A stretch of DNA of 64,000 bases, from positions 32,676,001-32,740,000 of the forward strand of contig CM097885.1 in NCBI GenBank assembly GCA_044892525.1, written 5' to 3'. Both the position numbers and the translations under genes were made by a program. Below are positions 1 to 37,201 of the stretch, in pieces. The notes under the pieces were generated by a model that saw nothing but the letters and a program-made list of their open reading frames with translations, made no database searches and was not told where the DNA came from. The DNA is from Schmidtea polychroa. Lineage: Eukaryota. The stretch's first letter is position 1. Each line of letters starts with the position of its first letter.

Positions 1-1
1 T

Positions 2-3000
2 CTAAAGAGCGGATACTGGCAAATTAAAGTTAAAGAGGAAGATAGAGAAAAGACAGCCTTTACCATCGGAAAAGATTTATATCAGTTTAAAAAGATGCCA
101 TTCGGATTAACAAATGCACCTGCTTCGTTTCAAAGATGTATGAACTTTGTGACACACGGAATTAAACAATGTATGGTGTATATTGATGATCTGTTAATTT
201 ATTCAGGTACTTTCGAGCAACACTTAATCGATATCAGAAACGTCTTCATAAGACTGAAACAATGGAAGCTGAAATTGAAACCGTCAAAATGCGATTGGGC
301 AAAGGAGAGAGTCACGTTTTTAGGACATATTGTGTCGGCAAAAGGAAAGGAACCAGATCCGAGAAACGTTGAAAAGATAAAAAATTGCCCGATACCAAAG
401 ACTGTGACTCAGGTACAAGAATTTCTGGGATTATGCGGATACTACCGCAAGTTCATCAAAAATTATGCAACTATAGCAAAACCAATTCAGGAACTAACGA
501 AAAAAGACACCCCATTTTTGTGGGAAAGAGAACAGCAAATAGCATTCGAATCGTTAAGAGATAAACTAATAGCCTCACCTATTCTAATACACCCAGATTT
601 TAAAAAGCCTTTTCTACTAGCAACCGATGCCAGTGGATATGCATCAGGAGCTGTGCTAGGACAATGGGATGAGGAGAAACGAGAAAGAGTCATCGGATAT
701 TATAGCAAGACGTTCAAAAAGCACGAAAAGAATTACTCAGTCACAGAAAGAGAAGCCTTAGCAATAATTCAGGCGATAAAACATTTCAAATATTTATTGT
801 GGGGACACGAGATAATTATTACTACAGACCATCAACCTCTAGTTTGGTTGGGCCAACACAAAGAAGCATCTAGTCGATTAATGAGATGGGCAATGCAGTT
901 ACAAGAATATTCCCCATACATCAAATTCAAGTCAGGAAAAGCAAACGCAAATGCAGACTGCATGTCGAGATTTGTATTTGAGGAACTCATGGATCATGAC
1001 GTCAGACGAATATGCCTGATAATCGCGGAAGATATCGATTTTACCAATCTAAAGAACGAACAAAAGGAAGACAATGAATTAAAACTAATAATTGAGTTCC
1101 TGGAAAAAAACGATATGAAAATATTCAACAACGATGATCGACTAAAAGAACACATGGAGAAAAATCGTCACAGATATACGATCGAGAAAGGATGGCTATT
1201 GGTAATGGATGGCGACAAACGATTGATGTGTCTACCAGAAAGTAGACGGAAAGAAATTATGATTCAATACCACGATGGTAAATTGGGCGGACATATGTCA
1301 GCCAAGAAAACAGAAGCAAGGCTCAAACAGAAATATTACTGGCCAAATATGAGCGATGACGTGAAAGAATGGATAAAGAACTGCCTGATATGCGCAACCA
1401 GAAAAACAACGGGCAGTAAACTAAAGCCACCATTGAAACCAATGCCGATACCGCCAGAACCGATGACAATGATTGCAATGGATGTAGTTGGACCACTACC
1501 AGAGACTAACAGTGGAAATGTGTATATATTGGTAATAACTGATTATCTGACTAAGTTCCCTGAAGCATTTGCGATGCCAGACCAAAAAGCACGAACGGTT
1601 GCAAGGATATTAGTGGAAGAGATCTGCTGCAGATATGGAACACCAAAACAAATCTTAACTGACCAAGGAACTAATTTCATGAGCGAGATAATAAATGAAG
1701 TGACAAATTATTTTAGAATCGCCAAATTGAGAACCTCACCATACCACCCGCAAACGAATGGTCAGACAGAAAGATTTAACGGCATACTAATAGACATGAT
1801 GTCCAATTACGTGAGTAAACATCAAAAGGACTGGGATGAATATATTAAGTTGTGTCTAATGGCTTATCGAATGTCAATACACTCAGCAACGAAAATGAGT
1901 CCGTTTAAACTCATGTATGGAAGGGAATGCAACATGCCGATGGATCTCGAATACCAACCGCCAATCTCACAATATATGGAAATAGATGATTATGTGACAA
2001 AGTTCAAAGAGAGAATGCAGGAAATATGGAAAACCGCAGGAATGAACATCCGATTCAACCAGGAAAGTTATAAAGAATTACATGATAAAAAGAAGAACGT
2101 GCAAAACCATCAATTTAAAGTCGGAGATTGGGTTATTATAGAAACACCCGAGTTAATCCCAGGAACAGCAAAGAAATTACAACGTAATGGCAGAGGACCA
2201 TATGAAATCATCTATGTAAACGAGAACAACGCTCGAGTAAAGTTGGTTAACAATCCACTAATTAGACCCATATACGTGAATACATGTCGATGTAAAGCAG
2301 TAGCGAAAACTGCCACTAAAGATCCAGAAACAAGGAAGATAATCACGAGATCACAAACAAATGCCACAACAGAACCAGAAGTAAGCGGTAGATTAACTAG
2401 ATCACAGACAAGACGGATATTCATGTTGAGGAGAGAAACAAGCAGCAGCGCCAATAAAGGAACCGAAACAGAAAGCGAAGCTGACGCAATGGCAAGGAGT
2501 CAAGCGACATGGAATATGACAGTAAAAATAGCACGAGAAATTGTACCAGAATGGGCCAATATAACCAATAAATACCAGGTATTAGGCAAACTAATGATAG
2601 TAGCAGAAAGATATGCAAAAGGACGAAGAAACGCTGAAGGAGTACAAGTACCGACTCAAATGTGTGAACTAGTCCGGAGATTACCAATCATGTTCCTAAC
2701 AAGTGATTTGAGTAATAACTGGCCAATCCATCATGCAGTCAAAGCAGGACAGGAAAAACGAGCATTAGAGATCATACGAATAATGGAAAATTGCAAACAA
2801 TCGACAAACGTTAAAAATAGTAAAGGGAAAACTCCACTGATGAAAGCCATAGCAATAGGCGCGTCAAGAGAAGTACTCAGAGAATTATTGAGAACGGGAT
2901 CCACGTTGAAAGAAAAAGACAATAAACAACGAACCATTTTACGTTACGCCGTCAAGTCAAAAAGACCTAGCATACTAAGCTTTATCACGGGAAATGCAAC

Positions 3001-5179
3001 AACCGAAGAAGCCGAGGTGTTGGGACAGAGCATTGAACCAATTCTGGAAGCCATCAGAGGAAACTTAGACAGAACAGCAGCAATGTTAATCAAATGGAAA
3101 CAAAACGAATTAAGAGCGGAAGTAATTGATATAAATCAATTCCAAAACAACGAAAATATCGTACTAAGAAGCGCCATATACTCAAGACCACCAATGCCAA
3201 AAACCATTAAAGCAATATTACAAAGAAATAGAGCAGAATTGACAGGTAATTGGTGGAAATGCACAAAAGCACATACGATGAAAAAGCAACTAGAAATACT
3301 AGTGTGGGAATGGCACCGAAAACAACGGAAATATCAAGGAACCAAAGAAGAACGAGAAAGTATCCACAACGATAAAAAAGAGATAATTAAAAAATACGAA
3401 GAGATGATCAAAGCGACAAATGTCGAGGACGACATTTTTGGGAAAACCCCGGGTGAGAGGAATGACGACGATGACGACGACGAAAGGATGGGGGATAACG
3501 ATAACAACCCAGAGGAAAACGACAGAGAACAAAATCCGGAGGGCGGAGAAACAACGGATGATGATGAGGAGTTGGAAGAAGACGACGATGACCAATGTCG
3601 AGGTGAAGATCAAGGATTCGACAAAACAGAAAACAAAAAACGAAAGTTCCCACTACATAGCATAATGTTTCGAAATCAAATCCAGCCAATCCTACTACAA
3701 AGAATATTTATAATATTAACATCTATCTGTTTAACGGAAACAAAAAATATGAGAATCGTAAGAGAAGCTTTCCAAGAAGGCGAAGTATTTATGATAAAAG
3801 TCAGCGATTACGACGGAAACGCCGTCGGAATATGTGTTCAACTAATGGAAGGAACAGGAGTAAGTTGTGATTTCAGATCGATAACAAAAGGAAAGATTTT
3901 TAACAGCCAAAAAAGAGACCCCAGGCTATGTGGAGATTATGACATTTGTAAAGACATAACAACAGAGGAAATGGAACTAGAAAGAGCTAATGAAACCGGA
4001 GTACATTTCCAACTTAACATTTTGGAAGAAGGTATCGAAATAGAAGATAAAGGGAGTCGATCAATTACACATGTATGCATCAGAGAAGACAGAGACATAT
4101 GCATAATAACTGATATGACACAAGACCACAAATTCTTCTGGGGAGAGGTCAAACCAAATACCCCTACTGTGGTATGCGCAGGAACACAAGGGATAGTAGT
4201 GTGTAAAGGAACAAGAACTGCACCAAGAAAAGACAAACCAAGGAGTATGGCAATTAAACAAGGTCCATTGACGGAGAAAACAACCAAGAAGCCCAAGAAA
4301 TCAGTTAGTACAAAAACAACAACAGAGCTAAATCGAAGCGAATTAATAACAACAACAACATGGATTAACGAAGTAATTAAAGACGAAAGACGGGAAGTGC
4401 AGATAACTATTAACCTCAACAAGAAAGGTGAAGAGGTAATTACAGTCAAAAACCAGGAAGGAGAACCAATCATAAGGATATGTGTAATGGATAAGACGGG
4501 AATAATCGACTGTACAACAACACCGATAGACAAAGGTACAGACGTTAAAATGGAGACAGGGAAACGGAAAGAACGATACCAAGTATGTATCCTTAAGAAA
4601 GGAAGAGGAACCAGCGTATGTCAACCAATAACTCGACAAAAACCCCAATTAATAAACATACCGTGGATACCCCGAGATCAAGAAGGGGGAGAGAAACGGG
4701 AAAATCACAGTCACCTAACAGAAAAAGAGAAGGAACGATTACATCAAGCATTCAAGAAAATCAAAGCACCAGAAACAAATACCACAGGTAGTACAATATT
4801 AACGACAGAAAAAACAAATAATGGAACAACGATCATCACAAAGATGATATGGATAACTAGCGCGATAGTAAGCACGATAATAGCGTTAGCAATGATTCAG
4901 TGGATAAGAACCACCAAAAGATGTAAACAAAAACCGAGAAACCAAAGAAAATGGCCCAAAGTGGAAAAATTTGAATACGGTATTCCAACAGAGAATCTGA
5001 ATCTAGAGGAATACGAGGTGGTAGAGGATCCCGGATCCAGCGGATTGTGGATGTCGGAGCTACCAAGAATACCCACGCCCAACGAATGGACACACGAAGT
5101 CGATATATACCGACTAACGGACGAAAGATATGGGGGAATGCGCACGCTGCATTCCGGTCCCATGGCGACACTGGTATAA
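2..5179 (+). CDS. pol: Pol polyprotein (5'-partial): RT, RNase H, integrase with GPY/F, then ankyrin repeats, acidic tract, Cys-rich region, TM helix and cytoplasmic tail
   Basis: Frame is open from base 2 (LKSGYWQI...KTAF...MPFGL). YIDD at 179-190; RNase H TDAS/EALAI/TDH; HHCC (HDGKLGGH..CLIC); DDE (MDVVGP, TDQGTNF, QTERFN); RGPY ~2192; ankyrin-like WPIHHAV, GKTPLMKAI, RTILRYAV ~2714-3090; TM MIWITSAIVSTIIALAMIQWI 4844-4906. Confidence 0.95.
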   Translation, partial: LKSGYWQIKVKEEDREKTAFTIGKDLYQFKKMPFGLTNAPASFQRCMNFVTHGIKQCMVYIDDLLIYSGTFEQHLIDIRNVFIRLKQWKLKLKPSKCDWAKERVTFLGHIVSAKGKEPDPRNVEKIKNCPIPKTVTQVQEFLGLCGYYRKFIKNYATIAKPIQELTKKDTPFLWEREQQIAFESLRDKLIASPILIHPDFKKPFLLATDASGYASGAVLGQWDEEKRERVIGYYSKTFKKHEKNYSVTEREALAIIQAIKHFKYLLWGHEIIITTDHQPLVWLGQHKEASSRLMRWAMQLQEYSPYIKFKSGKANANADCMSRFVFEELMDHDVRRICLIIAEDIDFTNLKNEQKEDNELKLIIEFLEKNDMKIFNNDDRLKEHMEKNRHRYTIEKGWLLVMDGDKRLMCLPESRRKEIMIQYHDGKLGGHMSAKKTEARLKQKYYWPNMSDDVKEWIKNCLICATRKTTGSKLKPPLKPMPIPPEPMTMIAMDVVGPLPETNSGNVYILVITDYLTKFPEAFAMPDQKARTVARILVEEICCRYGTPKQILTDQGTNFMSEIINEVTNYFRIAKLRTSPYHPQTNGQTERFNGILIDMMSNYVSKHQKDWDEYIKLCLMAYRMSIHSATKMSPFKLMYGRECNMPMDLEYQPPISQYMEIDDYVTKFKERMQEIWKTAGMNIRFNQESYKELHDKKKNVQNHQFKVGDWVIIETPELIPGTAKKLQRNGRGPYEIIYVNENNARVKLVNNPLIRPIYVNTCRCKAVAKTATKDPETRKIITRSQTNATTEPEVSGRLTRSQTRRIFMLRRETSSSANKGTETESEADAMARSQATWNMTVKIAREIVPEWANITNKYQVLGKLMIVAERYAKGRRNAEGVQVPTQMCELVRRLPIMFLTSDLSNNWPIHHAVKAGQEKRALEIIRIMENCKQSTNVKNSKGKTPLMKAIAIGASREVLRELLRTGSTLKEKDNKQRTILRYAVKSKRPSILSFITGNATTEEAEVLGQSIEPILEAIRGNLDRTAAMLIKWKQNELRAEVIDINQFQNNENIVLRSAIYSRPPMPKTIKAILQRNRAELTGNWWKCTKAHTMKKQLEILVWEWHRKQRKYQGTKEERESIHNDKKEIIKKYEEMIKATNVEDDIFGKTPGERNDDDDDDERMGDNDNNPEENDREQNPEGGETTDDDEELEEDDDDQCRGEDQGFDKTENKKRKFPLHSIMFRNQIQPILLQRIFIILTSICLTETKNMRIVREAFQEGEVFMIKVSDYDGNAVGICVQLMEGTGVSCDFRSITKGKIFNSQKRDPRLCGDYDICKDITTEEMELERANETGVHFQLNILEEGIEIEDKGSRSITHVCIREDRDICIITDMTQDHKFFWGEVKPNTPTVVCAGTQGIVVCKGTRTAPRKDKPRSMAIKQGPLTEKTTKKPKKSVSTKTTTELNRSELITTTTWINEVIKDERREVQITINLNKKGEEVITVKNQEGEPIIRICVMDKTGIIDCTTTPIDKGTDVKMETGKRKERYQVCILKKGRGTSVCQPITRQKPQLINIPWIPRDQEGGEKRENHSHLTEKEKERLHQAFKKIKAPETNTTGSTILTTEKTNNGTTIITKMIWITSAIVSTIIALAMIQWIRTTKRCKQKPRNQRKWPKVEKFEYGIPTENLNLEEYEVVEDPGSSGLWMSELPRIPTPNEWTHEVDIYRLTDERYGGMRTLHSGPMATLV

Positions 5180-5325
5180 CGAGAGGAGGAGTTGTTGTAA
5201 ATAATGTATAAATGAAATGATAAAAGTAGTGATAATAGTAGTAGTATGTACAAATAAAAATAGAAAATTAAAACAATATGTAGAAAATCAAAAACAAGTA
5301 TGATGACCATGTATTATAAATAGGA

Positions 5326-5781
5326 ATGAACCAGAGAAACGAATAGCAAGAACACCCAAATGGGATACCACATGTTGTTGAAGTAAGAGAACAGCCGCTA
5401 ATGAATGTACATCCAGTAGACATGATGGAAATGAACGTGCCAAACCAGCCGAGTCAGCCAACAGGATCCATGTGGAGGGCACAGTGTGAATTAATGACCC
5501 AATTGACAAATCAGACTCAAGAGCACTGGGTACGAAACCAAACGGCGTTGATAGAGAGTATTAATAGAAATGCAATATATATTACAAAAATAGAGGAACA
5601 ACACCAAATAATCGCGTAACTAGAGTATAATAACAATCAGTTAATAAGCCAAATCAGATGGCAAGCGGAAGAAATTAGAAGGTTGCATGAAAATCGACAA
5701 CATGATGATATTACCAGTTTAGTCGAGTGGATGACCGGGTTACCAGGAACAGGGGAACCGGACTCGACGGTAGATGTATAG
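5326..5781 (+). pseudogene. Disrupted cargo ORF, small coiled-coil protein
   Basis: ATG at 5326 follows an AG. The frame runs to TAG 5779-5781 with two in-frame stops (5344, 5617) and includes the listed 5401-5619 ORF; QAEEIRRL resembles motifs in the other coiled-coil ORFs. Confidence 0.6.
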
Positions 5782-5870
5782 GAGAGAAAGGAGTGAAATG
5801 TAAATAATCCTGTAAATAAATAGAGTTATAATCAAGTAGAAATCCCAAGATTAAAAATCATCATTGTAGA

Positions 5871-7294
5871 ATGCAAAACAAAGCAGAGGAAAACCGGAGA
5901 GAAGCAGAGGAACAAAAGATTAACTATGAGTTGATGAGAAAATACCAAGCCGAGCCGGACGAGTTCGAAGAGAGATTATTATGTGCCGATACAGCATGTA
6001 GAAGATTATTAATTGGAGCAAGTCAAACTCGATGCGGGTGTAGATTGTGCCGAGGGTGTGATATAAGATTAGCCAGACTAAAGCGAGAAACTTGTCCAGG
6101 ATGTGGAGAAGCATTTAAGTTGGTTCCCACTGGTACGATACCGGATAGAGCAATGAACCGAGAAATCAGAGAAGTGAAAATAAGATGCACCCAAAGGTCA
6201 TGCGAATGGACAGGCCGAGTAAAGGAGTTAAGAGCCCATACAGACGTATGCGAATATCTAGAATCGGAATGCGAAGCATGCACGGTAAAGTTGTTACGAA
6301 AAGAGAAAACCAAACATAAAGGGGAATGCGAAGCGCGAACGGAAAAATGCGAATTTTGCGGAGAAACTGCTAATTGGAGAGAAATCGAAATGGAACATCG
6401 AAACGCAGTAGAAAGACGGATTTGCGACGAATATACAGGGAAATGCCCAAACGAGTGTGGAGAAATTAACAACGTCAGATTAAATGAACATTGGGAGATA
6501 TGCACGAGAAAAGCAATAAGATGCCCAATGGTGACATTCGACTGTAGAGCACAATTACCAGCAGAAGAAATGAAGAAGCATGTGGAGGAGAATACATTCG
6601 AGCACATGCAAAAGATGATGAGAGCAATAGAGTTAACAGCAAGAGCAATTGAAGACGTCAAAGACGAACTCAAATCACATAAAATCATGATAAAAGAAAT
6701 GCTGAGCTCACAGGAAAGCTTCGAAAATACGAGAGAAGCCGTAACACAAAGGATGTTGAAATTAGACGACAAATTAGTCGAAGTAACTAAATTACAAACC
6801 AAATGGACTACAAAGGAACTGACAACAGAGGAACTACCAATACTACCATACATGTGGAAAATCCAAGGAATAACGGAAATAATGGAGCAAGCAAAGCAAG
6901 GAATCCAGACAACGATAGTGAGCAAACCATTCTACGCCAAGAAACATGGATACAAGATGAAATTGAGATGGTTTCCAAATGGTGAAGGAAAGTTTAAAGA
7001 TCGGTGCATGTCCATATATATGCAAATTTGTAAAGGAGATTTTGACGACCTAATAGCATGGCCATTCCGACATAGATTAAAAATATCTCTCTTAGGAGCA
7101 AAAAAGACACATATAATGTGTTTTCGAGCATCCAGTCCAGCAGGGAATAAACCGATTACAGAGGTTAATCCTGCGGTAGGAGTAGCAGAGTTTATGCAGC
7201 TATACAATTTAATGAAGGGTCCTACATAGAAAAGGACACTATATTCTTCCTAATCGAACTAGATGAGGAAGGACCAACAATAGAAATACGATAG
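5871..7294 (+). CDS. TRAF-family protein (RING, TRAF zinc fingers, coiled coil, MATH); frameshift near 7220
   Basis: RING-like CADTAC..CGCRLCRGC..CPGC; CEWTG..H..VC zinc fingers; MATH SKPFY..GYKMKLRWFPNG..SIYMQICKGDFDDLIAWPF. The last MATH strand SYIEKDTIFFLIE is in a shifted frame (7220-7294). Confidence 0.92.
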
Positions 7295-7434
7295 ACGGAT
7301 AGAAGGGAACTGTAAATATTTTGTAAAAACGATGTAAAGTAAATATAAAGTTATTGTATACAGTAAAGTAACTTGCCAAAACCATAAAAATTAGAAAAAG
7401 AAAATGTAAAAAGAAATGATGAAATTTATTATAG

Positions 7435-8613
7435 ATGATTAATCAAGAGAGACCGAATATCCGAAAGAAAACGATCACAATGAGAGAGGAAGAGGACAAT
7501 ATGTCACCTAGAGAAAGAGTGAAGGATGCGGAAGTCAGCAAAACAAAACCAAGTAGTTACGCATATTATCGAAGAATGGGAAACGATTATAATTGGGTAC
7601 ACGAAAATTTGAAACTGGGAGATAATGAACAATTCAGATGTGAGAACCAGAGATATCTGTCATTTGAAGATCAGACCATTTTCACCAAGGAACAGAGCCG
7701 AGCGCTAGCACGCGACGGATTTTTCTTCTCCGGAAAACCAGAGATACCCGATCAAGTAACGTGTCGTTTCTGTAAAGGGAAATTAGCAGAATGGAAAAAA
7801 GGAGAACACCCAAAGGAGGAACATCGTAGACGATTCCCAACTTGTCTATTCGTACTGGGATTTGATGTACACAACAAACCGGAAATCAAATACGAAGCCT
7901 TGGAGAAATTGAAAACTGAAGACGAAAAAGGAGGGAAAATGAGCATCGCGATAACCAGAATCGTTGATGAGTATGTTCCAACTTGTGAAGGGGAATTCCT
8001 CACGCAAATAGCAGATAATAGAATGAAAACGTTCGGAGATGATACGAGAGGACCTGAATTAGCAATAAGAGGGTTCTACCTAACAGAAAATCAAATACTA
8101 AAGTGTGAAAGATGCGAAAGCCAACAGAGATTACCGGAAGAAGGCATACCAGAAATTAGACATCAAGCATGGTGCCTATATCACAACGAACAAGAAACCG
8201 AATATCCGGAAGTACTAGTAACAGAGGAAGAGGTTGACGAAGTGGTAGACAAACCCAACATGTGCAGAGCGTTGAAAGCAGCCGGAATAGGCACGACAAG
8301 GGCAAAGAACATGATTAGAGAGAGACTACAGAAAAATGTACATATACCAACAACAACGTACGATATGATCAGAGCGATAACCCAGTATAGAGAAAAACCT
8401 GAAACAAAAATAAAAGAAGAATCAATAGTCAAAACAGCTATCTTACGAGATATCAAATGTACTATGTGTTGGGAGAGGAGTGTAGAAGTTATTCATATGC
8501 CATGCGGACATTTGATCGCATGTGCCACGTGTAGTAGGAAAATAAAAGAATGTCCAATGTGTAGACAGAGGATTGCGCAGCGAATCAAAGGATTTCGCTA
8601 CGCCGATCAATAA
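7435..8613 (+). CDS. Inhibitor of apoptosis (IAP): BIR, degenerate second BIR, UBA-like region, C-terminal RING
   Basis: BIR1 RYLSF..LARDGFFF..DQVTCRFC..W..H....C; BIR2 RMKTF..LAIRGFY..CERC..H...C; RING CTMC..PCGHLIACATC..CPMCR. Confidence 0.95.
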   Translation: MINQERPNIRKKTITMREEEDNMSPRERVKDAEVSKTKPSSYAYYRRMGNDYNWVHENLKLGDNEQFRCENQRYLSFEDQTIFTKEQSRALARDGFFFSGKPEIPDQVTCRFCKGKLAEWKKGEHPKEEHRRRFPTCLFVLGFDVHNKPEIKYEALEKLKTEDEKGGKMSIAITRIVDEYVPTCEGEFLTQIADNRMKTFGDDTRGPELAIRGFYLTENQILKCERCESQQRLPEEGIPEIRHQAWCLYHNEQETEYPEVLVTEEEVDEVVDKPNMCRALKAAGIGTTRAKNMIRERLQKNVHIPTTTYDMIRAITQYREKPETKIKEESIVKTAILRDIKCTMCWERSVEVIHMPCGHLIACATCSRKIKECPMCRQRIAQRIKGFRYADQ

Positions 8614-8696
8614 CGAAAAATAAAAATTTCGTGTATAAAGTGTAGATAATAAATGTATGAAATAATAGTAGTAGTAATAGTGTAATTATTTAGACA

Positions 8697-10295
8697 ATGA
8701 ATAAAGAATCACAAACCTATGTGGAAACCGAGATGCAACAACTCGAACAGTACAAATCCATCATACAAACATACGAAGCAGAAAGAGTAAAGAGAGAAAT
8801 AGAAATGTACAAAACCATGTATGAGAAAAAGCAACAAGAGTTAGAAGTGGAGAAGGCGGAAACACTAGCAGCAAAAGAGAAGTGGATGAAACAGGTAGAG
8901 GAATTAACCGAAGATGTGAGAAATACATCAACATACCAAGAATTGGAGGAGGAGCTCTCGAACTTACGAACTCAGCGGATTATGGAGATAGTTGGGTTAT
9001 GCGGAGAGATAATAATGCAGAAGACACAAATTAGAGAAGCAAAGGAGCAATACGAGGAAGAACAGCGTAAAACGGAACGAATAAAACTACAAGCGCAACA
9101 ATGGAAACGAAAATACGAAACCCTCCAAACGAGGCAGAATGATAGTCACGAACATCAAATACGAGGGTATAAAGTAGAACTAGAAGAAGCAAAGAATCAA
9201 TGTGCAATGATGAAAGAAAAATGGGAAAGATGCAAAAGGACCCTAAGCGAAGTCAGGGGACAAGGGAGGAGAACACCACGTAAAGAACCAATCGTTAAAG
9301 ATAACGTATTAGAGCGAATTAACGCACAAATAAAGATACAAGCTCAGAAATGGAAGTATAAATATCTAGGAAGTCAAACCCAAGTGCTCTATTGGAAAAT
9401 CAGTAGCAAGGAACAACTGCGATTACGAAAAGCAGACCAAGAATTTTACGAAATAAGGGCTACACAGCGAGAAGAAGAGGAAGTAGAGTGGAGAAAACGA
9501 CAGCAGAAATTTGAGGAAACCGAAGAGTGTCTCAAGCATCAAGCCCGAAAATGGAAAAAGAATTGGAAAGAGACCAAAGAGGAGTTAAGACAGTTACCAA
9601 TGAAACTGATGGAAAGAGACGAATTTAAAATGTGGGAAACGATAGAAAACCAAAAAGATGAGATCAGCCGATTGAGTAGAGAACATAGAATCAAGACGCG
9701 GACCAGCGACGGTAGACGGAGAGTCATAAAGAAACAGACTCGAGAAATAAGAAGGTATGAATACCAGGAAAAGAGATGGGAACAACAATTGACAGACCAA
9801 GATCGACAGATCCGACAATTACAAACAGAGGTAGAGGAAGCTAATCAAGAGATGAACGGATATAAAGGTATGTACACCCAAAGGGATGTGAATTGGAAGC
9901 ATCAGATTGCGCTTAATGCGAAATGTAGAGAGGAGTGCGATAAGGCAATTCAACAAGCCAAACAGGAAACCGAGATAATAAAACGATGCTTCGAAGAAAA
10001 TGAAGCGAATCTGAGAGCAGAAATCGAGAAGTTGAAAATGCTTGAAAAAACCCAACGATTGGAAGAGGAATTGGATGAGATGATAGAAAACGAAAGTAGA
10101 TTAACGTTTCTGTTGGATGAAGAAATAAACATCGCAACGGAATTGCGGGAGGAAGTAGAGCGGTTAAGAAGACAACCACCAATACTATTAATGCCACTCT
10201 ACCCGTTCCCATTACAAGTGCCACAGCCTGCCGAAGTTACAGCAGATGAAGGCTTCGAAGAAAATAACGAACAAAATAACGCAACATGGATTTAG
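8697..10295 (+). CDS. Long coiled-coil protein of unknown function (cargo)
   Basis: 532-aa intact ORF, E/K/Q/R-rich heptads, internal repeats QAQQWKRKY / QAQKWKYKY / QARKWKKNW, Pro-rich tail. Confidence 0.85.
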   Translation: MNKESQTYVETEMQQLEQYKSIIQTYEAERVKREIEMYKTMYEKKQQELEVEKAETLAAKEKWMKQVEELTEDVRNTSTYQELEEELSNLRTQRIMEIVGLCGEIIMQKTQIREAKEQYEEEQRKTERIKLQAQQWKRKYETLQTRQNDSHEHQIRGYKVELEEAKNQCAMMKEKWERCKRTLSEVRGQGRRTPRKEPIVKDNVLERINAQIKIQAQKWKYKYLGSQTQVLYWKISSKEQLRLRKADQEFYEIRATQREEEEVEWRKRQQKFEETEECLKHQARKWKKNWKETKEELRQLPMKLMERDEFKMWETIENQKDEISRLSREHRIKTRTSDGRRRVIKKQTREIRRYEYQEKRWEQQLTDQDRQIRQLQTEVEEANQEMNGYKGMYTQRDVNWKHQIALNAKCREECDKAIQQAKQETEIIKRCFEENEANLRAEIEKLKMLEKTQRLEEELDEMIENESRLTFLLDEEINIATELREEVERLRRQPPILLMPLYPFPLQVPQPAEVTADEGFEENNEQNNATWI

Positions 10296-10325
10296 TCGGA
10301 GAGAGGTTGCCTGTAAATAAGAATG

Positions 10326-10355
<30 letters not shown>
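10326..10355 (+). repeat. A30 homopolymer in a cargo spacer
   Basis: 30 consecutive A, shortly after TGTAAATAAG. Confidence 0.95.
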
Positions 10356-10360
<5 letters not shown>

Positions 10361-10454
10361 AAGCCAAAACCAAATAAAAATTACAAATTACAAAACCAAA
10401 AATTCAAAATAAAAGGGAGACGAAAGGAAAAATGATGTGTATATTTTTGTAGAT

Positions 10455-11165
10455 ATGAATTATTTAAAAGACAGAGAATCAACGAGTAACGCAAGAAAAT
10501 CAATTGACCAACCTGAACAAAGCCAGAATACGATACCAATCAAACAAGAACCGATGAAATATTATAGTAATAAATGGAGAGTCAGCAAGAAGTTGTTCAA
10601 AACAAAAATCGCAAATCAAAATGTAGAGATTACGAGATTGAGACAGCATATTGTTCAATCAAGACGATTAATAAACACTGTCAAGCAGGAAATTTTGAGG
10701 GAAATAAATGAATCGAAACTAAAAGAGACGGAAAATAAAAACCTGAGACAAGAGATAGTAGAGTTGAGAGCTCAGGCAGTAATCGAAGACTATTGGAAAT
10801 CAGAAACAAGGAAGTTGAAAAAGATTGTGAATATCGACCAAGTGTATATCGAACAATTGGAAGCACAATACGCTTATGCAAAAGCGAGAATGCGGGAAAG
10901 TAAAAAGGTCGACAAGAGAAACGCAAGACTCAAGGAGGAGATCAAGGAACAAAGAGAGGAAACAGAAAAACAATGGAAGTTGAAAGAGAATTATCGGAGA
11001 ATTTTAAATCAAAAACGACGAAGCATGCAAGCACTGCAGACGACAATGACCATCAGACAGAGAAAATGGAAAAGTGAAGAGAAGCGATTACAAGAAATGC
11101 CAGAATTAAAGAGACAGTTGATGGCAACGCAACTCGAAGTAATAAGGATGAACGAGTTGAGTTAA
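10455..11165 (+). CDS. Coiled-coil protein of unknown function (cargo)
   Basis: First ATG at 10455 after TTTTTGTAG; basic coiled-coil composition; IANQNVEITRL resembles IENQKDEISRL in the preceding ORF. Confidence 0.8.
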   Translation: MNYLKDRESTSNARKSIDQPEQSQNTIPIKQEPMKYYSNKWRVSKKLFKTKIANQNVEITRLRQHIVQSRRLINTVKQEILREINESKLKETENKNLRQEIVELRAQAVIEDYWKSETRKLKKIVNIDQVYIEQLEAQYAYAKARMRESKKVDKRNARLKEEIKEQREETEKQWKLKENYRRILNQKRRSMQALQTTMTIRQRKWKSEEKRLQEMPELKRQLMATQLEVIRMNELS

Positions 11166-11297
11166 GACGAGCACCTGAACCTCCCGTAAAATTAAGGGAT
11201 GAGGTCGGTGGCTCCCAATAAATGAGATAAAATAACTGTGTAAATAAATTGTAAATAAAGCCAAGTAATTATTATTAACGTATATGTATATGTAAAG

Positions 11298-12284
11298 ATG
11301 AGAAGCCTAACCGTGGTGATAATTATAATGACAATGCCCAGAATCCTGCAAGCTGAAGAATCAATGATCAGATGCCAGAAAGAATACCCATATCGCAGAG
11401 AAGATAGCACCTGTAGTAGCTTTAAATCAATCTGTGAAAAACCCAATGAAGAATGCGAACAAATCAAGTTGCAATGTTCGCAATGTCCACAAACAACTGG
11501 AAGTTCGACGGAAATGCAAATGGCTCAGACAATGAAAACAATATTAGAACAAGAAATGAAAGTTATCAGAACCCAGATAGCAACATTAGCCAAACAATTC
11601 CAAAGCCAGAAATCAAAGAAAGAAACCCAAACGGATCCGGCCGCAATGAGAATGATGGTAATAATATTAGAGGAAATAAAACAACAGGTAACAGCAACCG
11701 CCAATGGACGTTCAAGCAATTGCGAAATAGTAGTAAAATCTTTAGAGGAAATGAAAGGGAAAATAACTTCCATCATCAAAGAGGAACCCAGCATTAAAAA
11801 TGAGGTAACGAAAACATTGAAAGAAATGACAAAAGAAGTCCTAACTACCATAAACAAAAACCCAATGAACTCCGAGAAGATGATTAAAACCCTGGAGGAA
11901 ATAAAGAAAGTTGTCAACTCGGAAGAAAACAAATTCAACAAACCCGAAAAATCAGAAATTACAGATACAACCCAATTGGGAGAAATGATAAACAAACCCA
12001 GAGTAGTAGAACTAAGAGAATCTGAACCCCTCACAATATTGATCCTATTAGCGGCAAGCCTAATGATAAACATTACCGTACTGAGCCTGATTGCACTCAA
12101 ACCCAATTCCAGTAAAGCAAGAAACAAAACCCTCAAACTAAAAGAACAATCAAAGAATATTCATATCCCAATGGAAGAACAGCTAATCCAAACAACGAAC
12201 CAACCAAGATACTTCAAATCTTCCCCAAACATCGAAACCAGAGCCGTCATCGAGACGAGATCCCGAACAACAGAATTCTATTAG
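11298..12284 (+). CDS. Type I membrane protein: signal peptide, 6-Cys domain, helical stalk, TM helix, tail with PxEE (TNFR-like or env-like)
   Basis: N-terminal MRSLTVVIIIMTMPRILQA; C-x12-C-x6-C-x6-C-x6-C-x2-C; repeated KTLEE(I/M)K-type stalk units; TM LTILILLAASLMINITVLSLIAL; PMEE at 12168-12179. Confidence 0.85.
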   Translation: MRSLTVVIIIMTMPRILQAEESMIRCQKEYPYRREDSTCSSFKSICEKPNEECEQIKLQCSQCPQTTGSSTEMQMAQTMKTILEQEMKVIRTQIATLAKQFQSQKSKKETQTDPAAMRMMVIILEEIKQQVTATANGRSSNCEIVVKSLEEMKGKITSIIKEEPSIKNEVTKTLKEMTKEVLTTINKNPMNSEKMIKTLEEIKKVVNSEENKFNKPEKSEITDTTQLGEMINKPRVVELRESEPLTILILLAASLMINITVLSLIALKPNSSKARNKTLKLKEQSKNIHIPMEEQLIQTTNQPRYFKSSPNIETRAVIETRSRTTEFY

Positions 12285-13298
12285 TGTGACATCATGACAG
12301 TAAAAACATTTCACGACATTATAAACGATAAATCATCCTGATCGAACAATTGATTTCAAAGACTGAGACTACGATTAATGACACTGATTCTTGAGCATGA
12401 TAATGTTATTTTTATGTGGGCCGACCTCGGTCGTTCTTTTCCTTCATCTTTCAACCCATCTGTAAAATGTAGTGTAATAGTAGCATTTTTATGTATGTGG
12501 GTATTGAGGTCACGACCCTGTAGCTCGTGGACCCAATTTGCATGTAGGCACTTGTAATATAGTGCAAGTATTCTGAAAATTAATCTTATTCATCTTTGGA
12601 TTTAAATTGCGGGTCGCAATTTTATGGGCCCCCGAGTGTTTTATGTTGGGCTAGAACTGATTTCTAGACCCAAACTACTAATTGTGACTGAAACGTGCAG
12701 GTACACAACATGTAAAAAGCAAAAAGTATAGTTAAATATTAAAACCTACACCAAATAAACAATATTAACTAAAGGAGAAAGCAACAAAAACATAAACAAA
12801 GAAATTAAATAAAATTATACAGAAGCAAGAAGTGATGCAAAAATCTAACTCAAAAATAACCAAACAAACATAGAATTACCAAAAGCAAACTCGAATAACT
12901 TAAAAGACGATAAAAATAGTAAAACATTCCAGAAAGACCCAGAACATTCTATAAAATGGCGATGACCATCACAAAAGTCATCTAGAACAACAAAAGTTAA
13001 GGAAAATAAATGAATTAGTATTAAAAATAAAAAATCTCAAAAAGAAATTCATAAAAACATCAGTTAAAAATAAAAATTAAATTAAAAGTAAAATAGAATG
13101 TTCTGGAACCGTTCCAAATCCATCATGGACGTAAAGTAATGAAAAAATAATTAAAAAATAAAAATTTAAAAATAAAAACAAAAATTATAGCACAAAAATT
13201 TCCACAAAAAATATAAAAATCATGAAATAGAAAATTCTGGAATAAAAAGAATTCGAGTTTGTTTTAACGCATCAATACATACACGTGTACAAAATAGG

Positions 13299-13307
13299 TA
13301 TATATAC
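13299..13307 (+). promoter_or_regulatory. Candidate LTR TATA box
   Basis: TATATATACTG at the switch from A-rich to T-rich + strand; equivalent position to TATAAATACTG (~20756) in the short LTR. Confidence 0.4.
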
Positions 13308-16202
13308 TGACACGTTTCAGGCACATTAAGCATTATTTTGTTTATGCCAATATTTTATTAGAAATTTTCCGAAAATTATTAGTAAGTAGATTTTTCTTTT
13401 GTTATTCGATGTTATCATGATTAATGTAACTATTTTAATGTAGATTAATATCCATAAGATCAATTTCTTTTTATTTTTTATCTTTTATTAAAAATTTTTG
13501 TTTGAATACGACTGATCAGCGGCGTCTCAGTGCGTCTCTGTTCAGTCCTGCATTTGATATTAACAATTTTTGAAACATGCAGACATGCCATATTCTATAT
13601 ATATATTTTTTTTTGTTTGGTCATCGGAGGTCGGCCACTTCATGGTTCTACCATGGAGTTGTGTCGATAAAACCCCTCCGCTATGGCTCTATATGCTTTA
13701 TTTATCGGTCGACAGTGATGTTTCGACTCAACACAACAGTAGGGCTTGTCGTAGCGGTCACAGTGGGGCCGTGTAAGCAAGCATTCTTCCCGAGTACAAG
13801 CAAACATATTTAATTTCAACATTAAAAATCGTAGACAATAGGGTACACTAAGGTCATAATCGAGTAGATCTCAGACCCAAATTGAACACAGCAATTACAA
13901 TTCAGCTAATGTAGTCGGTTAAGACCTCTCCACTTACACGTTTGTCGAACCTCATTGAGAAATAATTTTTCGTATCAGTGTAAATGTCTCTCTCGAAATT
14001 GACCGTAATGATGCTCACGAAGGAGTTCGACAAGCGTGAATCGTAAAATGAACTATATACTCTCCTGTTACACTTAAACATCAGGCTATAAATGTATAAT
14101 GTTCCTAAACTATAGAATATATGTTAGAATTGCTAAATACTTAGAATTCCTAAATGGTAAAACATAACTTACTACCGTACTTAGAATTATATGTGATAAA
14201 TACGTAATACCTCTAAATTACAAATATGAGTTAATATTGTCTTCAAAAATATAATTTATAAAAGTTAAATTGTCAAATACCTCTTAATACTATGCCTGAA
14301 AATAATGCGGAATATTCATAAATTATAAAATTTTACTTTATACTATCCTCAAAATTATAATCTATAAATGTGTAAAACATAATTTATAAATATGAAATTA
14401 TAATATACATGCTTGAAAAGCAATTTTAAAAATGTGTAATATTCCTAAATTATGAAATTTTACCCTATATTATTCTTAAAATTATAACTTATACCTGTGT
14501 AAAAATATAATTTATAAATGTCAAATTGTAAAATATAACCTAGTACTATGCTTGGAGGTATAATTTATTATGAAATATAACCTATTTCTATACTTAAAAA
14601 TATAAGTTAAAAAGGTACGTAAATAATTTTTATTGTACCTAAAAATATGATTTATAAATATGTAATATTACTAAATCATAAGATTGTATTGCTTGTGGTT
14701 CGTAAATCTTACCTTGAGATTATCAGTAGCAAACTAAAATGTAAACTCATACTACGTATAAATTATAAATTATATCTTAGTATTTTCTGTATAAAAGTAT
14801 AAAGTCATGCTACTCATAAAGTACAAATTATGTCTTAGAATTATACACAAAAATATAAACTATAGGTTTATATTGCCCATCAATTATAGAATGTAACGTA
14901 TGCATAGAATGCAAATTACAAACTATAAGGTATGATTTTGGTTATAAGTTATAATTTCGGTATCCATAAATACAAATTATAAATTCCAAAGAATAGAAAC
15001 TATTACTAGCTATATATAGCTCATGAGTCCGTAAAGTGTAAATTGCAAGGCTGAAGTGTGGATTATGGAATAATTATATAAAGTATAAACCGTAGATTAT
15101 TTTTATAAAAGTATAATCTAATTATATGTCTAAATTATAAAATTATATATCAAAATTATCTATCTAAAAATTATATATCTAAATTACACCTCTAAATTAT
15201 ATATCTAAATTATATAAACTTATAAAATACCATCGTAAATTTAGATTACCAATTATAAACTATGATTTCATACTCCATATAAGGTAAAGGACCAAATTCT
15301 GAATTCTAAGTTTATATTTCGTATATAATTGATGAATGACGAATGTATAAAATGTACAGTTGCGTATGCGAAATTAGCTAGGTTATAATTAACCCCTACG
15401 CCAAAATCATGGAGTACAATGACAAACATAAAGGAGAAGCACGCCCGACCTCTAGATCGGAAACCGCAGTGAAGCTTGACGGTAATTTAATTAAAACTAA
15501 TTTAACATCCAGTCGAAAGAGAGAATAATATTTAACATTTATTTTACAACATCAAGGTTCTAGTGGGCTGAACCAGGATTGCCGAGAGAAGTTCATTGTG
15601 GGCTGGAGTCTTGCATACTCCAGCTGTTCCCGCTCGTTGCTGGGAATTGCAAATAGGATTGACAGTTGCGGATAATTCCTGAACTTTACGAATCTACTAA
15701 TTTTAAATTTACAGTCTAACTTACTTCGAAGGATCCAGATGAATTGCAACACAGAAGGGAATGAATCTAAAAATCTAATATACCAAAATAAACTAAATTT
15801 ATCAGAAAAAAGTTTTTAAATATTTAAAAGCCTTATAATTACATGTATTTAAAATTTACTATTCAAAACCATTGTAGTTTACTTTAAATTTGACCTTATT
15901 ATGATTGTTACGATAAAACACCGTAAAATATGATTAATTGGTAATTTCCGCGTAAGGTAAATTTTAATGTATAGTGAAAGACTTGAATTTTAATTTAAGC
16001 AAAAGTTGAGGGTACCCTTTCAAGTACAATTTAAGTTAATCTGATTAATTGTTTAAATTATGAACATTTGGAGTTTGTTTCGTATTTTAAGCAAATTTTT
16101 TTGTTGTGTGTGGTTTCATATTAGCCCGCGAGCGTTGTAGCAGAGAGAAGCGTTCTCGTTTGCATTGTGATAACCTTATTAATCATTGCTACCCAAACAG
16201 AT

Positions 16203-16568
16203 ATGTCACACTCAGACGACTACAGCGATGATGACGGCTACAGACAAATAATCACCCGGCTCCGGTCCCGGTACGTCTGGTTTCACATCCATCGGTGGAG
16301 CCAGGGACGGGACTTAGATTGTTCCAACCAAGTAATCCGGACGGGCCCCGAAGTGGATGCCCCGGCGTGGGTAAAAGTAGAGCCCACCAACAACGTGCTC
16401 CGGGAAGCCCGCGATCGAGCGGCCGATGAGGTGGTGGAGGCCCAAAAGCGGCTGAGGAGACTCGAGCTCCAACTCAAAGCCGAAACACTGGGGGTAACTC
16501 TTGAAGAGCTGGAGGAGACCGACACCCCTCCACGAAAACGGGGAAGGCCCCGCAAGAACCTGGCCTGA
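16203..16568 (+). CDS. LTR-encoded small protein with coiled coil and C-terminal AT-hook
   Basis: GC-rich ORF in AT-rich surroundings; ATG directly after ACAG|AT; PRKRGRPRK at 16530-16556. Confidence 0.7.
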   Translation: MSHSDDYSDDDGYRQIITRLRSRYVWFHIHRWSQGRDLDCSNQVIRTGPEVDAPAWVKVEPTNNVLREARDRAADEVVEAQKRLRRLELQLKAETLGVTLEELEETDTPPRKRGRPRKNLA

Positions 16569-16881
16569 CTCATCGACAGGCGCGGCTTGAATGGAATGGT
16601 TTTGACTGATTTCATCCAGTGATATTTTACCTTGTAGTAGCATGACGAATTGTATTTTTCTTTTGTTCGTTAAATCTTGACAATATAGTCTATCGTGTAT
16701 CTTCGTAGTGCAATAAATTAATTTTTGTTTCGCTATTACATTTTGAACTTTATAGCTAATGGGGTGTATTCATGATTGAGGTGCCCCTTTTCTCATCACC
16801 CACTTATTAATTTCATGCACGTACTCTAACCAACTTTGCGCACCTGGATGCGAGCGATGGAATTTATTATTATTTTCTTCA

Positions 16882-17316
16882 GTGTACCAGTTATTGGAAA
16901 ACCTACGAAAGGACCGCGAACAGGCCCAGCAACAATCCGAGGGTCTCCGAGGTCGGGTCGAAAAACTCAAGCTGAAGTATCGAGAACTCCAAAGTACGTG
17001 GTTCAGTCCGGCCGACATGAAAAAACAAACTACGCGCATCTCACAACTCCAGACCCAGGCGGAGCAAGATCAGCTCGAGATCCGAGCGCTGAAGCTACAA
17101 GTGCGCTCGCTCGAGAGTAAATTGAACGAAAGGATTGTCCAGGACACCCTTTGCGAGCAGATTCGTCCTCTTGCCGTAGAGTTGGCCCGGATATACCCAC
17201 CGGCCCAGACGAACAAGCCGAAACGCAAACGGTTAGGGCGGAACACCCGAGAGAAATTGAAAAGGGCCTGGCTGGCCGAGCAGGAGAAAGGGAAAGAGCC
17301 GGAAGGCAATCCATGA
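16882..17316 (+). CDS. LTR-encoded coiled-coil protein with basic NLS-like tail; needs splicing or a GTG start
   Basis: GC-rich ORF beginning at a strong acceptor TTTTCTTCAG; heptad pattern; KPKRKRLGR. Confidence 0.6.
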   Translation: MYQLLENLRKDREQAQQQSEGLRGRVEKLKLKYRELQSTWFSPADMKKQTTRISQLQTQAEQDQLEIRALKLQVRSLESKLNERIVQDTLCEQIRPLAVELARIYPPAQTNKPKRKRLGRNTREKLKRAWLAEQEKGKEPEGNP

Positions 17317-29358: not shown

Positions 29359-30027
29359 GTTTAAACCAACTTCATATTGATAACAAAAGGTTTTATTATA
29401 TAAATTGTGTTCATATTAAATCCTTGTTTGGGGTTACACGTATACTTGTTGAGTTCATAGGTACGGTAGTCTGTTTAGATTCCAAATGAACCAATTAAAA
29501 ATGTGTTTTTGTGTTTATTTAATAAATAATCCAAATTTTTACAAAGTAACTACACAAAAGTGATGCTGAACAATAAAGCAAGATATCAGTTTGTTAAACC
29601 GGTTTCAGGTATTTCTAGTTACCTGTCACAAAATGGACCAATAACTCGGTATAGATGAGTGATGAAAAATTAGGGATTCCTTACCGATAGCTTTTAATTG
29701 AGAATAACCAAGGGATATCAGTTTACTCAAATTCTCAAAACCTTGTGTGATAATGAATGAGATGAGATGGCAAAAAATGATGCAGCAGTATCTTTGGAAA
29801 ATCTTTGGAAAAGTTTTATTTTGTAATTACTGGGTATACGATAAGTATGGAATTTCATAAAGAACGGAAGTGGGATACGACTAAGACATTTTAAATCTAA
29901 CTCCAACTAATTAAAATGCGCGTTAAGTTGTTAAATGAATAAATAAACGATATGTTATATAAACTTTATTATTGATCAATCCAAATTCCTTTTACAATTA
30001 ACTAAAATACTATTTAAATTCCCAGTT

Positions 30028-30808: not shown

Positions 30809-30868
<60 letters not shown>

Positions 30869-31997: not shown

Positions 31998-32058
<61 letters not shown>

Positions 32059-36516: not shown

Positions 36517-36532
36517 TAATAATAATAATAAT

Positions 36533-36622
<90 letters not shown>

Positions 36623-37200: not shown

Positions 37201-37201
<1 letters not shown>

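What the first reader, a model, noticed from the sequence alone, without database searches (positions are those of the whole stretch)
5180..11300. Operon-like spacers: TGTA(A/G)ATA motifs after each stop and an AG acceptor right before each ATG
Seen: TGTAAATA at 5196, 5799, 5811, 7311, 10312, 11239 and 11250, and TGTAGATA at 8641, all in the short spacers; some overlap AATAAA. Each cargo ATG lies 0-3 nt after an AG: AATAG|GAATG 5326, TTGTAG|AATG 5871, TATAG|ATG 7435, TTTAG|ACAATG 8697, TTTGTAG|ATATG 10455, AAAG|ATG 11298, and ACAG|ATATG 16203 in the LTR. Known: UGUA plus AAUAAA marks poly(A) sites, UGUANAUA is the Pumilio element, and flatworms perform SL trans-splicing. Inference: one polycistronic RNA is resolved into monocistronic mRNAs by trans-splicing or nested alternative splicing from a common leader, possibly under Pumilio control.
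Basis: partly seen in the sequence, partly recalled or inferred. Interest (0 to 1): 0.85.

Follow-up and report, generated by a model that had tools for sequence, protein, structure and literature searches.

The report
Operon-like gene array in giant retrotransposon
A 35-kb jumping gene of a likely planarian flatworm packs six extra genes in a row behind its main gene, separated by short spacers that keep, across very distant relatives, a predicted splice-entry site just before each start codon and predicted Pumilio-binding sites after each stop, so one long RNA is likely cut into single-gene messages, likely by the worm's own trans-splicing, though no RNA has been examined.

Summary
The stretch is the 3' accessory-gene array of a 35.5-kb, high-copy Burro-type Gypsy retroelement. 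TGTANATA occurs 8 times in 6 of 6 spacers (0.69 expected). It recurs 11 times in 5 of 5 spacers of a second family whose cargo proteins are only 27-32% identical. It is protected from change, and only position 5 tolerates substitution: the Pumilio-element grammar, not a Forkhead, TATA or plain UGUA site. The host Pumilio carries the canonical code. An AG sits 0-4 nt before the cargo ATG in 123 of 126 and 45 of 45 spacer copies. The nearest AATAAA lies 44-55 nt above it in 7 of 8 spacers that have one. Gag-pol also has an upstream acceptor followed by 500-700 ATG-free bases in both families. So each gene is likely an acceptor-led, separately polyadenylated message. No RNA could be examined. Whether the 5' end is the host spliced leader (my pick, 0.45) or a cis-spliced LTR leader (0.35) is therefore open; one LTR exon likely needs a cis-supplied start codon. 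The element is known; I found no account of this expression logic, but could not read the 2026 Burro1 paper.

The parts
1..5179 (+). 3' part of the 4688-aa ORF1 polyprotein (whole: Gag-CCHC, MATH, fusion glycoprotein, protease, RT, RNase H, integrase, ankyrin); it starts 8.9 kb upstream of the window
5180..5325 (+). spacer 1: TGTAAATA 5196, AATAAA 5253, TAG 5321-5323, ATG 5326
5326..5781 (+). small cargo ORF (151 codons); this copy has premature stops at codons 7 and 98; homologue in family D 32% identical
5782..5870 (+). spacer 2: TGTAAATA 5799 and 5811, AATAAA 5815 (55 nt above the acceptor G), TAG 5867-5869
5871..7229 (+). TRAF-like ORF, 452 aa (zf-TRAF, MATH)
7230..7434 (+). spacer 3: TGTAAATA 7311, no AATAAA (variants only), TAG 7432-7434; two out-of-frame upstream ATGs overlap the IAP start
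7435..8613 (+). IAP-like ORF, 392 aa (BIR + RING)
8614..8696 (+). spacer 4: TGTAGATA 8641, AATAAA 8648 (46 nt above the acceptor G), TAG 8691-8693
8697..10295 (+). 532-aa ORF without Pfam match, coiled-coil-like by composition (not formally tested)
10296..10454 (+). spacer 5: TGTAAATA 10312, 30-nt A run, AATAAA 10408 (45 nt above the acceptor G), TAG 10450-10452
10455..11165 (+). 236-aa ORF, no Pfam match over cut-off
11166..11297 (+). spacer 6: TGTAAATA 11239 and 11250, AATAAA 11254 (44 nt above the acceptor G), AAG 11295-11297
11298..12284 (+). 328-aa ORF with a hydrophobic segment near residue 247
12644..17690 (+). 3' LTR, 5047 bp, 99.94% identical to the 5' LTR 30.5 kb upstream; 4-bp target duplication TGAC
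16198..16568 (+). LTR ORF1 (121 aa) with CAG 16198-16200 two nt before ATG 16203; AATAAA at 16712
16880..17316 (+). LTR ORF2 exon: pyrimidine tract and CAG 16880-16882, then TG and 44 conserved codons with no ATG before the Met at 17017; start codon likely supplied at a splice junction

Best explanation
The spacers of this Burro retroelement carry conserved RNA-processing signals, and they likely let one LTR-driven transcript be resolved, operon-style, into one mRNA per gene, likely by cleavage at each spacer's poly(A) signal coupled to host spliced-leader trans-splicing at the AG about 50 nt downstream, with the UGUANAUA elements predicted to put each message under Pumilio control. SHOWN in sequence: enrichment, conservation and position-5 degeneracy of the motif; conserved AG 0-4 nt before the ATGs; fixed AATAAA-to-AG spacing; an acceptor opening an ATG-free leader before gag-pol; canonical Pumilio code in the host. 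INFERRED: that the AGs are used as 3' splice sites (about 0.85); that the hexamers are used for 3' ends (about 0.7); that Pumilio binds (about 0.75); that the 5' partner for the 3' cargo is the SL rather than an LTR exon (the weak step). The LTR ORFs are likely cis-spliced from a leader inside the LTR. The genomic RNA must escape all of these sites; how is unknown.
For: Motif: 8 vs 0.69 expected in family A and 11 vs 0.74 with 0 antisense in family D, whose spacers show no blastn alignment to A. One-mismatch scan: only position 5 is tolerated (14 vs 1.2). Core positions differ from the column majority at 6 of 1176 vs 520 of 12,581 cells in A and 21 of 837 vs 786 of 6698 in D; columns with shared variants 5 of 77 vs 162 of 568, P=6e-6. 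All eight Pumilio recognition triplets are canonical in the host gene. Acceptors: AG 0-4 nt before ATG in 123 of 126 A and 45 of 45 D spacer copies, and YAG 1-2 nt before LTR-ORF1 in LTR variants whose upstream DNA mostly does not align. T fraction above the AG is 0.45 vs 0.22 in the rest of the spacer. Upstream ATGs within 50 nt occur in 8 of 11 starts, not depleted. The gag-pol acceptor is followed by 499 ATG-free nt in A (shuffle P=7e-4) and 657-705 nt in 4 of 5 D copies. For SL in particular: the nearest AATAAA is 44-55 nt above the AG in 7 of the 8 spacers that have one (P=5e-5) and 46 nt above the gag acceptor in A (background 6 of 118). Spacers of 53-205 nt fit flatworm operon spacing (PMC12582326, PMC8629364). 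SL is active in Schmidtea (PMC10899757). The Gypsy element Cer1 takes SL1 on a sub-genomic mRNA (PMC3315495). GTRAG donors are mildly depleted in cargo ORFs (P=0.02-0.07) but not in ORF1.
Against: No RNA evidence at all. Flatworm SLs end in AUG (PMC12582326); that AUG would be out of frame at 7 of 11 clear cargo/RING acceptors. Offsets drift between 1, 2, 3 and 4 among subfamilies, so the frame is not held. The spacing prediction failed at the family-D gag acceptor (no AATAAA within 120 nt in 5 of 5 copies) and at D RING acceptors (nearest about 91-99 nt), and 2 of 10 spacers have no AATAAA. Homologous A and D spacers are not fully independent, and tight packing of poly(A) signal, downstream element and AG would give similar spacing under cis-splicing. 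LTR ORF2 cannot get its frame from an SL AUG. Upstream cis donors normally out-compete the SL (PMC4558846). The column-wise test on the AG alone was not significant (6 of 252, P=0.2, partly alignment shift). The last D gene has an in-frame ATG upstream of its AG and was left out.
Confidence: 0.45

Rival explanations
1. Nested cis-splicing: a common AUG-less leader exon in the 5' LTR is spliced to alternative 3' splice sites, one before each ORF, and each message ends at its own poly(A) site (adenovirus major-late-like logic, recalled). The close AATAAA-AG pair is an either/or switch. Pumilio elements act as in the main reading.
For: All acceptor, ATG-free-leader and motif evidence applies equally. 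LTR ORF2 starts in phase 1 right at AG in 12 of 12 sequences (TG in 10), with 19-33 of 44 residues conserved before the first Met of A, and AG|TG in all 8+8 further rows, so an exon must supply the start. The majority young subfamily has AAG|GTAAGC 380 nt above the LTR-ORF1 acceptor, and a GTAAG site is shared with two divergent LTR variants. Free offsets suit an AUG-less leader. D gag and RING acceptors have long pyrimidine tracts without the 44-55 nt hexamer. Spliced env mRNAs from an LTR leader are the rule in Gypsy elements (recalled).
Against: It needs introns of up to about 26 kb that skip up to nine upstream acceptors, several canonical hexamers and 22 GTRAG donors in ORF1. Donor presence in the LTR is not above chance by count and no common donor was identified. 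No spliced genomic copy was found, which is neutral if the donor lies above the PBS.
Confidence: 0.35
2. Each spacer holds a small internal Pol II promoter (TGTATATA/TATAAA as a TATA-like box, or GTAAATA as a Forkhead site) and each gene is transcribed separately without splicing.
For: Some D motifs read TGTATATAA; spacers are AT-rich; foamy-like elements use internal promoters (recalled).
Against: TATAAA and RYAAAYA are not significantly enriched in D (P 0.05-0.96). The motif is sense-strand only and varies at the position that a Forkhead or TATA site would need. Upstream ATGs lie within 50 nt of 8 of 11 starts. It does not explain the conserved YAG or the ATG-free gag leader.
Confidence: 0.08
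3. The genes are read from unspliced polycistronic RNA by reinitiation or internal entry; TAG before ATG is a stop for short upstream frames, and the motif only tunes RNA stability.
For: Several short upstream ORFs end at or near the TAG.
Against: Offsets are 0-4 with no fixed stop-start overlap; CAG and AAG variants occur; TRAF and RING starts have no upstream ATG within 50 nt; the fixed AATAAA spacing is unexplained.
Confidence: 0.05
4. The motifs are by-products of A/T-rich composition or inert relics of captured host mRNA ends.
For: AATAAA counts match composition; a 30-nt A run lies in spacer 5.
Against: 0 of 5000 and 0 of 1500 shuffles reach the observed counts; replication in a non-alignable family; 5-8-fold lower divergence at motif cores.
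Confidence: 0.02

Closest known systems
Burro / GYPSM1 giant Gypsy-like LTR retrotransposons of planarians (Burro1; PMC6431247 section 7; Lee et al. 2026, known only through PMC13465017)
   Same: Over 30 kb; one huge ORF1 with Gag-CCHC, MATH, fusion glycoprotein between gag and pol, PR-RT-RH-IN and ankyrin; accessory BIR/RING and TRAF ORFs.
   Different: ORF1 is 4688 aa here vs 4873 aa reported. BCL2, SUMO-like and dUTPase motifs were not detected by Pfam. The passages read say nothing on how accessory ORFs are expressed or on spacer motifs.
Flatworm and nematode operons resolved by SL trans-splicing (PMC12582326, PMC8629364)
   Same: Same-strand genes less than 300 nt apart, an acceptor before each downstream gene, and a poly(A) signal a short way upstream.
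   Different: Here the array sits inside a mobile retroelement whose full-length RNA must stay uncut. The predicted intercistronic gap (about 10-40 nt) is shorter than the S. mansoni median of 99 nt. SL addition is not shown.
Cer1 of C. elegans (PMC3315495)
   Same: A Gypsy element with an SL1-trans-spliced, cis-spliced sub-genomic mRNA and a long mRNA that must skip consensus splice sites.
   Different: Cer1 makes one accessory mRNA, and its gag-pol mRNA is unspliced. Here about ten ORFs, gag-pol included, each have a predicted acceptor.
Pumilio response element UGUANAUA (PMC5855632)
   Same: Exact 8-mer grammar with free position 5, sense strand, 16-84 nt after stops; the host PUM-HD carries the canonical triplets.
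   Different: Binding and direction of effect are untested; in family D some copies lie within 20 nt of the next acceptor, below the hexamer.
Adenovirus major late unit / complex-retrovirus accessory-gene splicing (recalled, no call)
   Same: Many 3' splice sites serving tandem ORFs from one promoter.
   Different: No common leader donor was identified here; retroviruses normally use one LTR poly(A) site.

Membership tests
Burro-type giant Gypsy element | Length over 30 kb with long LTRs and target duplication | tested here: met
   35.5 kb, 5047-bp LTRs 99.94% identical, TSD TGAC
Burro-type giant Gypsy element | Single polyprotein of about 4,700-5,100 aa with an env-like fusion protein between gag and pol | tested here: met
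   4688 aa; zf-CCHC, MATH, PF24664, protease, RT, RH, IN, ANK in that order
Burro-type giant Gypsy element | Accessory BIR/RING and TRAF ORFs | tested here: met
Burro-type giant Gypsy element | BCL2-like, SUMO-like and dUTPase-like motifs | tested here: inconclusive
   Not found by Pfam at E<=0.01; the paper used HHpred for some
Burro1 / GYPSM1 specifically | Sequence identity to the deposited consensus | not testable with these tools
   No repeat library held; the protein search returned only host-type IAPs at 21-38%
SL-resolved operon | Same-strand genes with intergenic distance of 300 nt or less | tested here: met
   74-205 nt in A, 53-192 nt in D
SL-resolved operon | 3' splice acceptor before each downstream gene | tested here: met
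   By sequence only: 123 of 126 and 45 of 45; last D gene ambiguous
SL-resolved operon | SL joined at those acceptors in mRNA | not tested
   No RNA data were examined
SL-resolved operon | Poly(A) site between the upstream stop and the acceptor | tested here: inconclusive
   AATAAA in 8 of 10 spacers, 44-55 nt above AG in 7; absent at the D gag acceptor; no 3'-end data
SL-resolved operon | One promoter and a polycistronic precursor; SL RNA genes in this genome | not tested
   SL genes are reported for Schmidtea but were not searched in G000
Pumilio response element | UGUANAUA with free position 5, sense strand, enriched and conserved | tested here: met
Pumilio response element | Host PUF protein with the matching recognition code | tested here: met
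   SRQ, NYQ, CRQ, NHQ, CRQ, NYQ, SNE, NYQ; six of these are seen in the PUM1-derived chain, and the code-to-motif link is recalled
Pumilio response element | Location within the mature 3' UTR and physical binding | not testable with these tools
   Needs 3'-end mapping and CLIP
CFIm UGUA upstream element | Constraint limited to UGUA; UGUA bias and CFIm59/68 in the host lineage | tested here: not met
   AUA is also constrained; planarian 3P-seq reports neither (passage)
Forkhead or TATA DNA site | RYAAAYA or TATAWA enrichment; orientation freedom for Forkhead | tested here: not met

The most novel reading that the evidence does not exclude
A 35-kb env-bearing retroelement is run as a roughly ten-gene eukaryotic operon. 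The host spliced leader caps gag-pol and each captured gene (TRAF, IAP and others) as a separate mRNA, and Pumilio elements in every 3' spacer tie them to the stem-cell post-transcriptional programme. This would explain how a retroelement can keep adding genes one after another in an SL-competent host.
Probability: 0.33. Interest if true: 0.85.

Novelty: new variant of a known kind. Interest (0 to 1): 0.62.

Why it matters
Burro elements are abundant in planarian genomes, and the IAP of Burro1 is reported to protect stem cells (seen only as cited in PMC13465017). How a gene lying 25 kb into a retroelement, behind a 14-kb ORF, is expressed is the obvious gap. The sequence gives exact, conserved junction and 3'-end predictions that existing planarian long-read, SL-primed and 3P-seq data can test at once. 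It also points to Pumilio, a neoblast factor (PMC5855632), as the likely regulator. If SL is the partner, it is a retroelement using host operon machinery for a multi-gene array. If the partner is an LTR exon, it is an adenovirus-like nested splicing unit in a retrotransposon.

Tried and rejected
RNA: no RNA holder was listed as on record and no reads were laid, so junctions and 3' ends remain open.

Spliced copies in the genome: short patterns asking for a non-genomic base three positions above the exon start found 0 matches for IAP, LTR ORF2 and the small ORF; the positive control found 171 IAP copies, all TAG. These patterns miss junctions that keep the genomic base there. The pattern for the last ORF was mis-designed and matched the genomic form (51 hits, all with AG).

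Relatives outside this genome: none in metagenome or viral contigs. No protein homologue of LTR ORF2 and no usable Atlas lead.

Other families: two env-bearing Gypsy families with LTRs of about 1 kb had no cargo array.

Leader donor: a candidate phase-1 mini-exon (15409-15481) is not conserved in other LTR variants, and donor counts above LTR ORF1 are at chance level. AATAAA and donor depletion over all ORFs pooled is not seen.

The prediction of AATAAA 44-55 nt above the family-D gag acceptor failed. CFIm, Forkhead and TATA readings were rejected.

Host acceptor control: only a few Pumilio-gene introns were seen by eye; the Smed454 splice-site table could not be read.

Papers not held: Lee et al. 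2026, Grohme et al. 2018 and Rossi et al. 2014; they or their supplements may already describe Burro transcripts. PMC3319590 had no hits for the terms. Earlier scan notes gave nothing for this stretch.
Full report
CONTEXT. The window is G000:C1:32676001-32740000 of a 781-Mb genome with four large contigs. With 20 kb of upstream sequence, bases 1-17690 are the 3' half of one 35.5-kb LTR element. It has 5047-bp LTRs 99.94% identical, a TGAC target duplication and a 4688-aa ORF1. Pfam places zf-CCHC, MATH, a viral fusion glycoprotein, protease, RT, RNase H, integrase and ankyrin in ORF1; TRAF and BIR-RING in two cargo ORFs; and a RING in an ORF between the 5' LTR and gag. This is the Burro architecture described for planarians (PMC6431247, section 7 read whole); the host is inferred to be a planarian from this. 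The family is young and abundant: all 138 scored candidates round to 100% identity over a 280-aa RT-RNase H piece, and 171 copies match the IAP start exactly.

OBSERVATION. Coordinates are right. TGTANATA occurs 8 times in 6 of 6 spacers against 0.69 expected (0 of 5000 shuffles). AATAAA is not enriched (9 vs 6.3). A YAG lies 0-3 nt above 5 of 6 cargo ATGs (P=1.5e-4), and the sixth is AAG. The ORF at 5326 is broken in this copy at codons 7 and 98 and has its normal stop at 5779-5781.

THE MOTIF IS A PUMILIO-TYPE ELEMENT. I aligned 21 older copies (92-96% identical; 20 picked from the BIR hit list and one found in another fetch, not at random). Copies under 60% identical over a spacer were dropped (4 at spacer 5, 2 at spacer 6) and the A run was excluded. 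Core motif positions differ from the column majority in 6 of 1176 cells vs 520 of 12,581 elsewhere; columns with shared variants are 1 of 56 vs 90 of 609 (P=0.004). A second family, D, was found. It has the same cargo order without IAP, four cargo proteins 27-32% identical and no DNA alignment to A spacers. One D copy has 11 TGTANATA in 5 of 5 spacers vs 0.74 expected and none antisense; a second has 10 vs 0.69. Of 15 D copies, 10, 9, 11, 15 and 15 were usable per spacer; 57 of those 60 spacer copies hold the motif, and cores are again protected (P=6e-6). A one-mismatch scan over A and two D copies shows only position 5 free (14 vs 1.2 expected; next highest, position 7, 4 vs 1.4, P=0.06), while TATAAA and the Forkhead consensus are not significantly enriched. 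This is the UGUANAUA grammar (PMC5855632, passages). The host has a Pumilio gene whose eight repeats carry the canonical recognition triplets. The CFIm reading is weaker: planarian 3P-seq found no UGUA above poly(A) signals and no CFIm59/68 (PMC5068929, passages). Binding and its effect are untested.

THE AGs BEHAVE AS ACCEPTORS. An AG lies 0-4 nt above the ATG in 123 of 126 A spacer copies and 45 of 45 D copies (36 YAG). The last D gene was left out because an in-frame ATG precedes its AG. A column-wise test on the AG alone was not significant. The 15 nt above the AG have T 0.45 vs 0.22 in the rest of the spacers. Upstream ATGs occur within 50 nt at 8 of 11 starts and are not depleted (17 vs 12.2), two of them overlapping the IAP start out of frame, so this DNA is unlikely to be a scanned 5' UTR. 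LTRs differ strongly among copies with near-identical bodies, yet the variants listed keep YAG 1-2 nt before LTR ORF1. LTR ORF2 has a pyrimidine tract and YAG followed by 44 conserved codons with no ATG in A, starting in phase 1 in 12 of 12 sequences, so its start must form at a junction or be a non-AUG codon. Gag-pol has TTATTTTAG 499 nt above its Met with no ATG in between (shuffle mean 4.3, P=7e-4; 14 ATGs in the 500 nt above; ATG-free in 3 of 4 copies). In D a strong acceptor lies 657-705 nt above gag, 30 nt below an upstream ATG and ATG-free downstream in 4 of 5 copies. The D RING ORF has a long tract, TAG and 2 nt before ATG in the 4 copies shown.

POLY(A) GEOMETRY. In 10 spacers (6 A, 4 D) 8 hold AATAAA, and in 7 the nearest starts 44-55 nt above the acceptor G (best-window P=5e-5; homologous spacers are not fully independent). 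The A gag acceptor also has it at 46 nt in 3 of 4 copies (background 6 of 118 leader YAGs), but the same prediction failed for D gag (0 of 5) and D RING. With planarian cleavage 10-30 nt below the hexamer, 3' ends would fall about 10-40 nt above the next AG.

MECHANISM. Each ORF is likely an acceptor-led, separately polyadenylated message. I favour operon-style resolution of the 3' cargo by SL trans-splicing (0.45). The reasons are the spacing, the operon-range spacers (PMC12582326 and PMC8629364, passages), SL activity in Schmidtea (PMC10899757, passages), the Cer1 precedent (PMC3315495, passages) and mild donor depletion in cargo ORFs only. Pure cis-splicing from an LTR leader is close behind (0.35). 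The SL's terminal AUG would be out of frame at 7 of 11 clear acceptors, offsets drift, LTR ORF2 needs a start from elsewhere, a strong donor sits 380 nt above LTR ORF1 in the majority subfamily, and cis donors usually win (PMC4558846, passages). Both can share acceptors in flatworms. Internal promoters (0.08), unspliced translation (0.05) and chance (0.02) fit poorly. No RNA was examined; genomic searches for spliced copies were negative and are uninformative if the donor lies above the primer site.

NOVELTY. The element type is known. Searches (listings, with passages read in PMC6431247, PMC13465017, PMC8532177 and PMC11410931) showed no description of Burro spacer motifs, acceptors or SL use. 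However, Lee et al. 2026, Grohme et al. 2018 and Rossi et al. 2014 were not held and may cover transcripts. Recalled, not from calls: adenovirus late splicing, env splicing in Gypsy elements, the Pumilio code-to-motif link, and the likeness of the primer site to tRNA-Pro. Verdict: a real, conserved regulatory grammar in a known giant retroelement; new variant of a known kind; interest 0.62.

Noticed in passing
window 12644-17690 vs L074, L076, L092, L110, L112, L130-L144: LTR swapping: copies with near-identical bodies carry LTRs only about 65-85% alike where they align and mostly unalignable upstream of LTR ORF1; all 8 young copies sampled have a different LTR from the window copy.
   Followed up: partly
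window 16203-16568 and 16883-17316: Two small basic LTR-encoded proteins (RKRGRPRK and KPKRKR stretches), conserved at 32-87% across families, with no Pfam or database homologue for the frames searched; candidates for regulators of splicing or export.
   Followed up: partly
L012:804-1112 (and D copies): 103 open codons precede the first Met of ORF1 in A and 107-115 in D; whether they are translated is unknown.
   Followed up: no
L011:7552, 7576, 7952-8434: A RING-only ORF between the primer site and gag with TAG|ATG and two conserved TGTAAATA about 400 nt upstream; homologue in family D at 24-27%.
   Followed up: partly
window 10326-10355: 30-nt A run 14 nt after the start of a TGTAAATA in spacer 5; could be a tail relic or slippage.
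   Followed up: no
L013-L015, L017-L019, L029-L031, L021-L028: Other Gypsy families with an in-frame fusion glycoprotein between gag and pol (3319-aa ORF, LTRs of about 1 kb, no cargo array).
   Followed up: partly
window 44206-56800, minus strand: Multi-exon host gene with SET-, PHD- and PWWP-like exons (NSD-like by eye, not scanned).
   Followed up: no
window 30000-39550: Large inverted and tandem repeat block (471-nt arms 99% complementary, 214-nt and 18-nt units, AAT runs).
   Followed up: no
G000:C4:88412964 and 88553481: Two detached copies of one Pumilio exon far from the full gene at C4:75.19-75.21 Mb.
   Followed up: no
L157:3581-11564: A run of compact intronless ORFs, Polinton-like by eye, inserted in a family-D element.
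   Followed up: no
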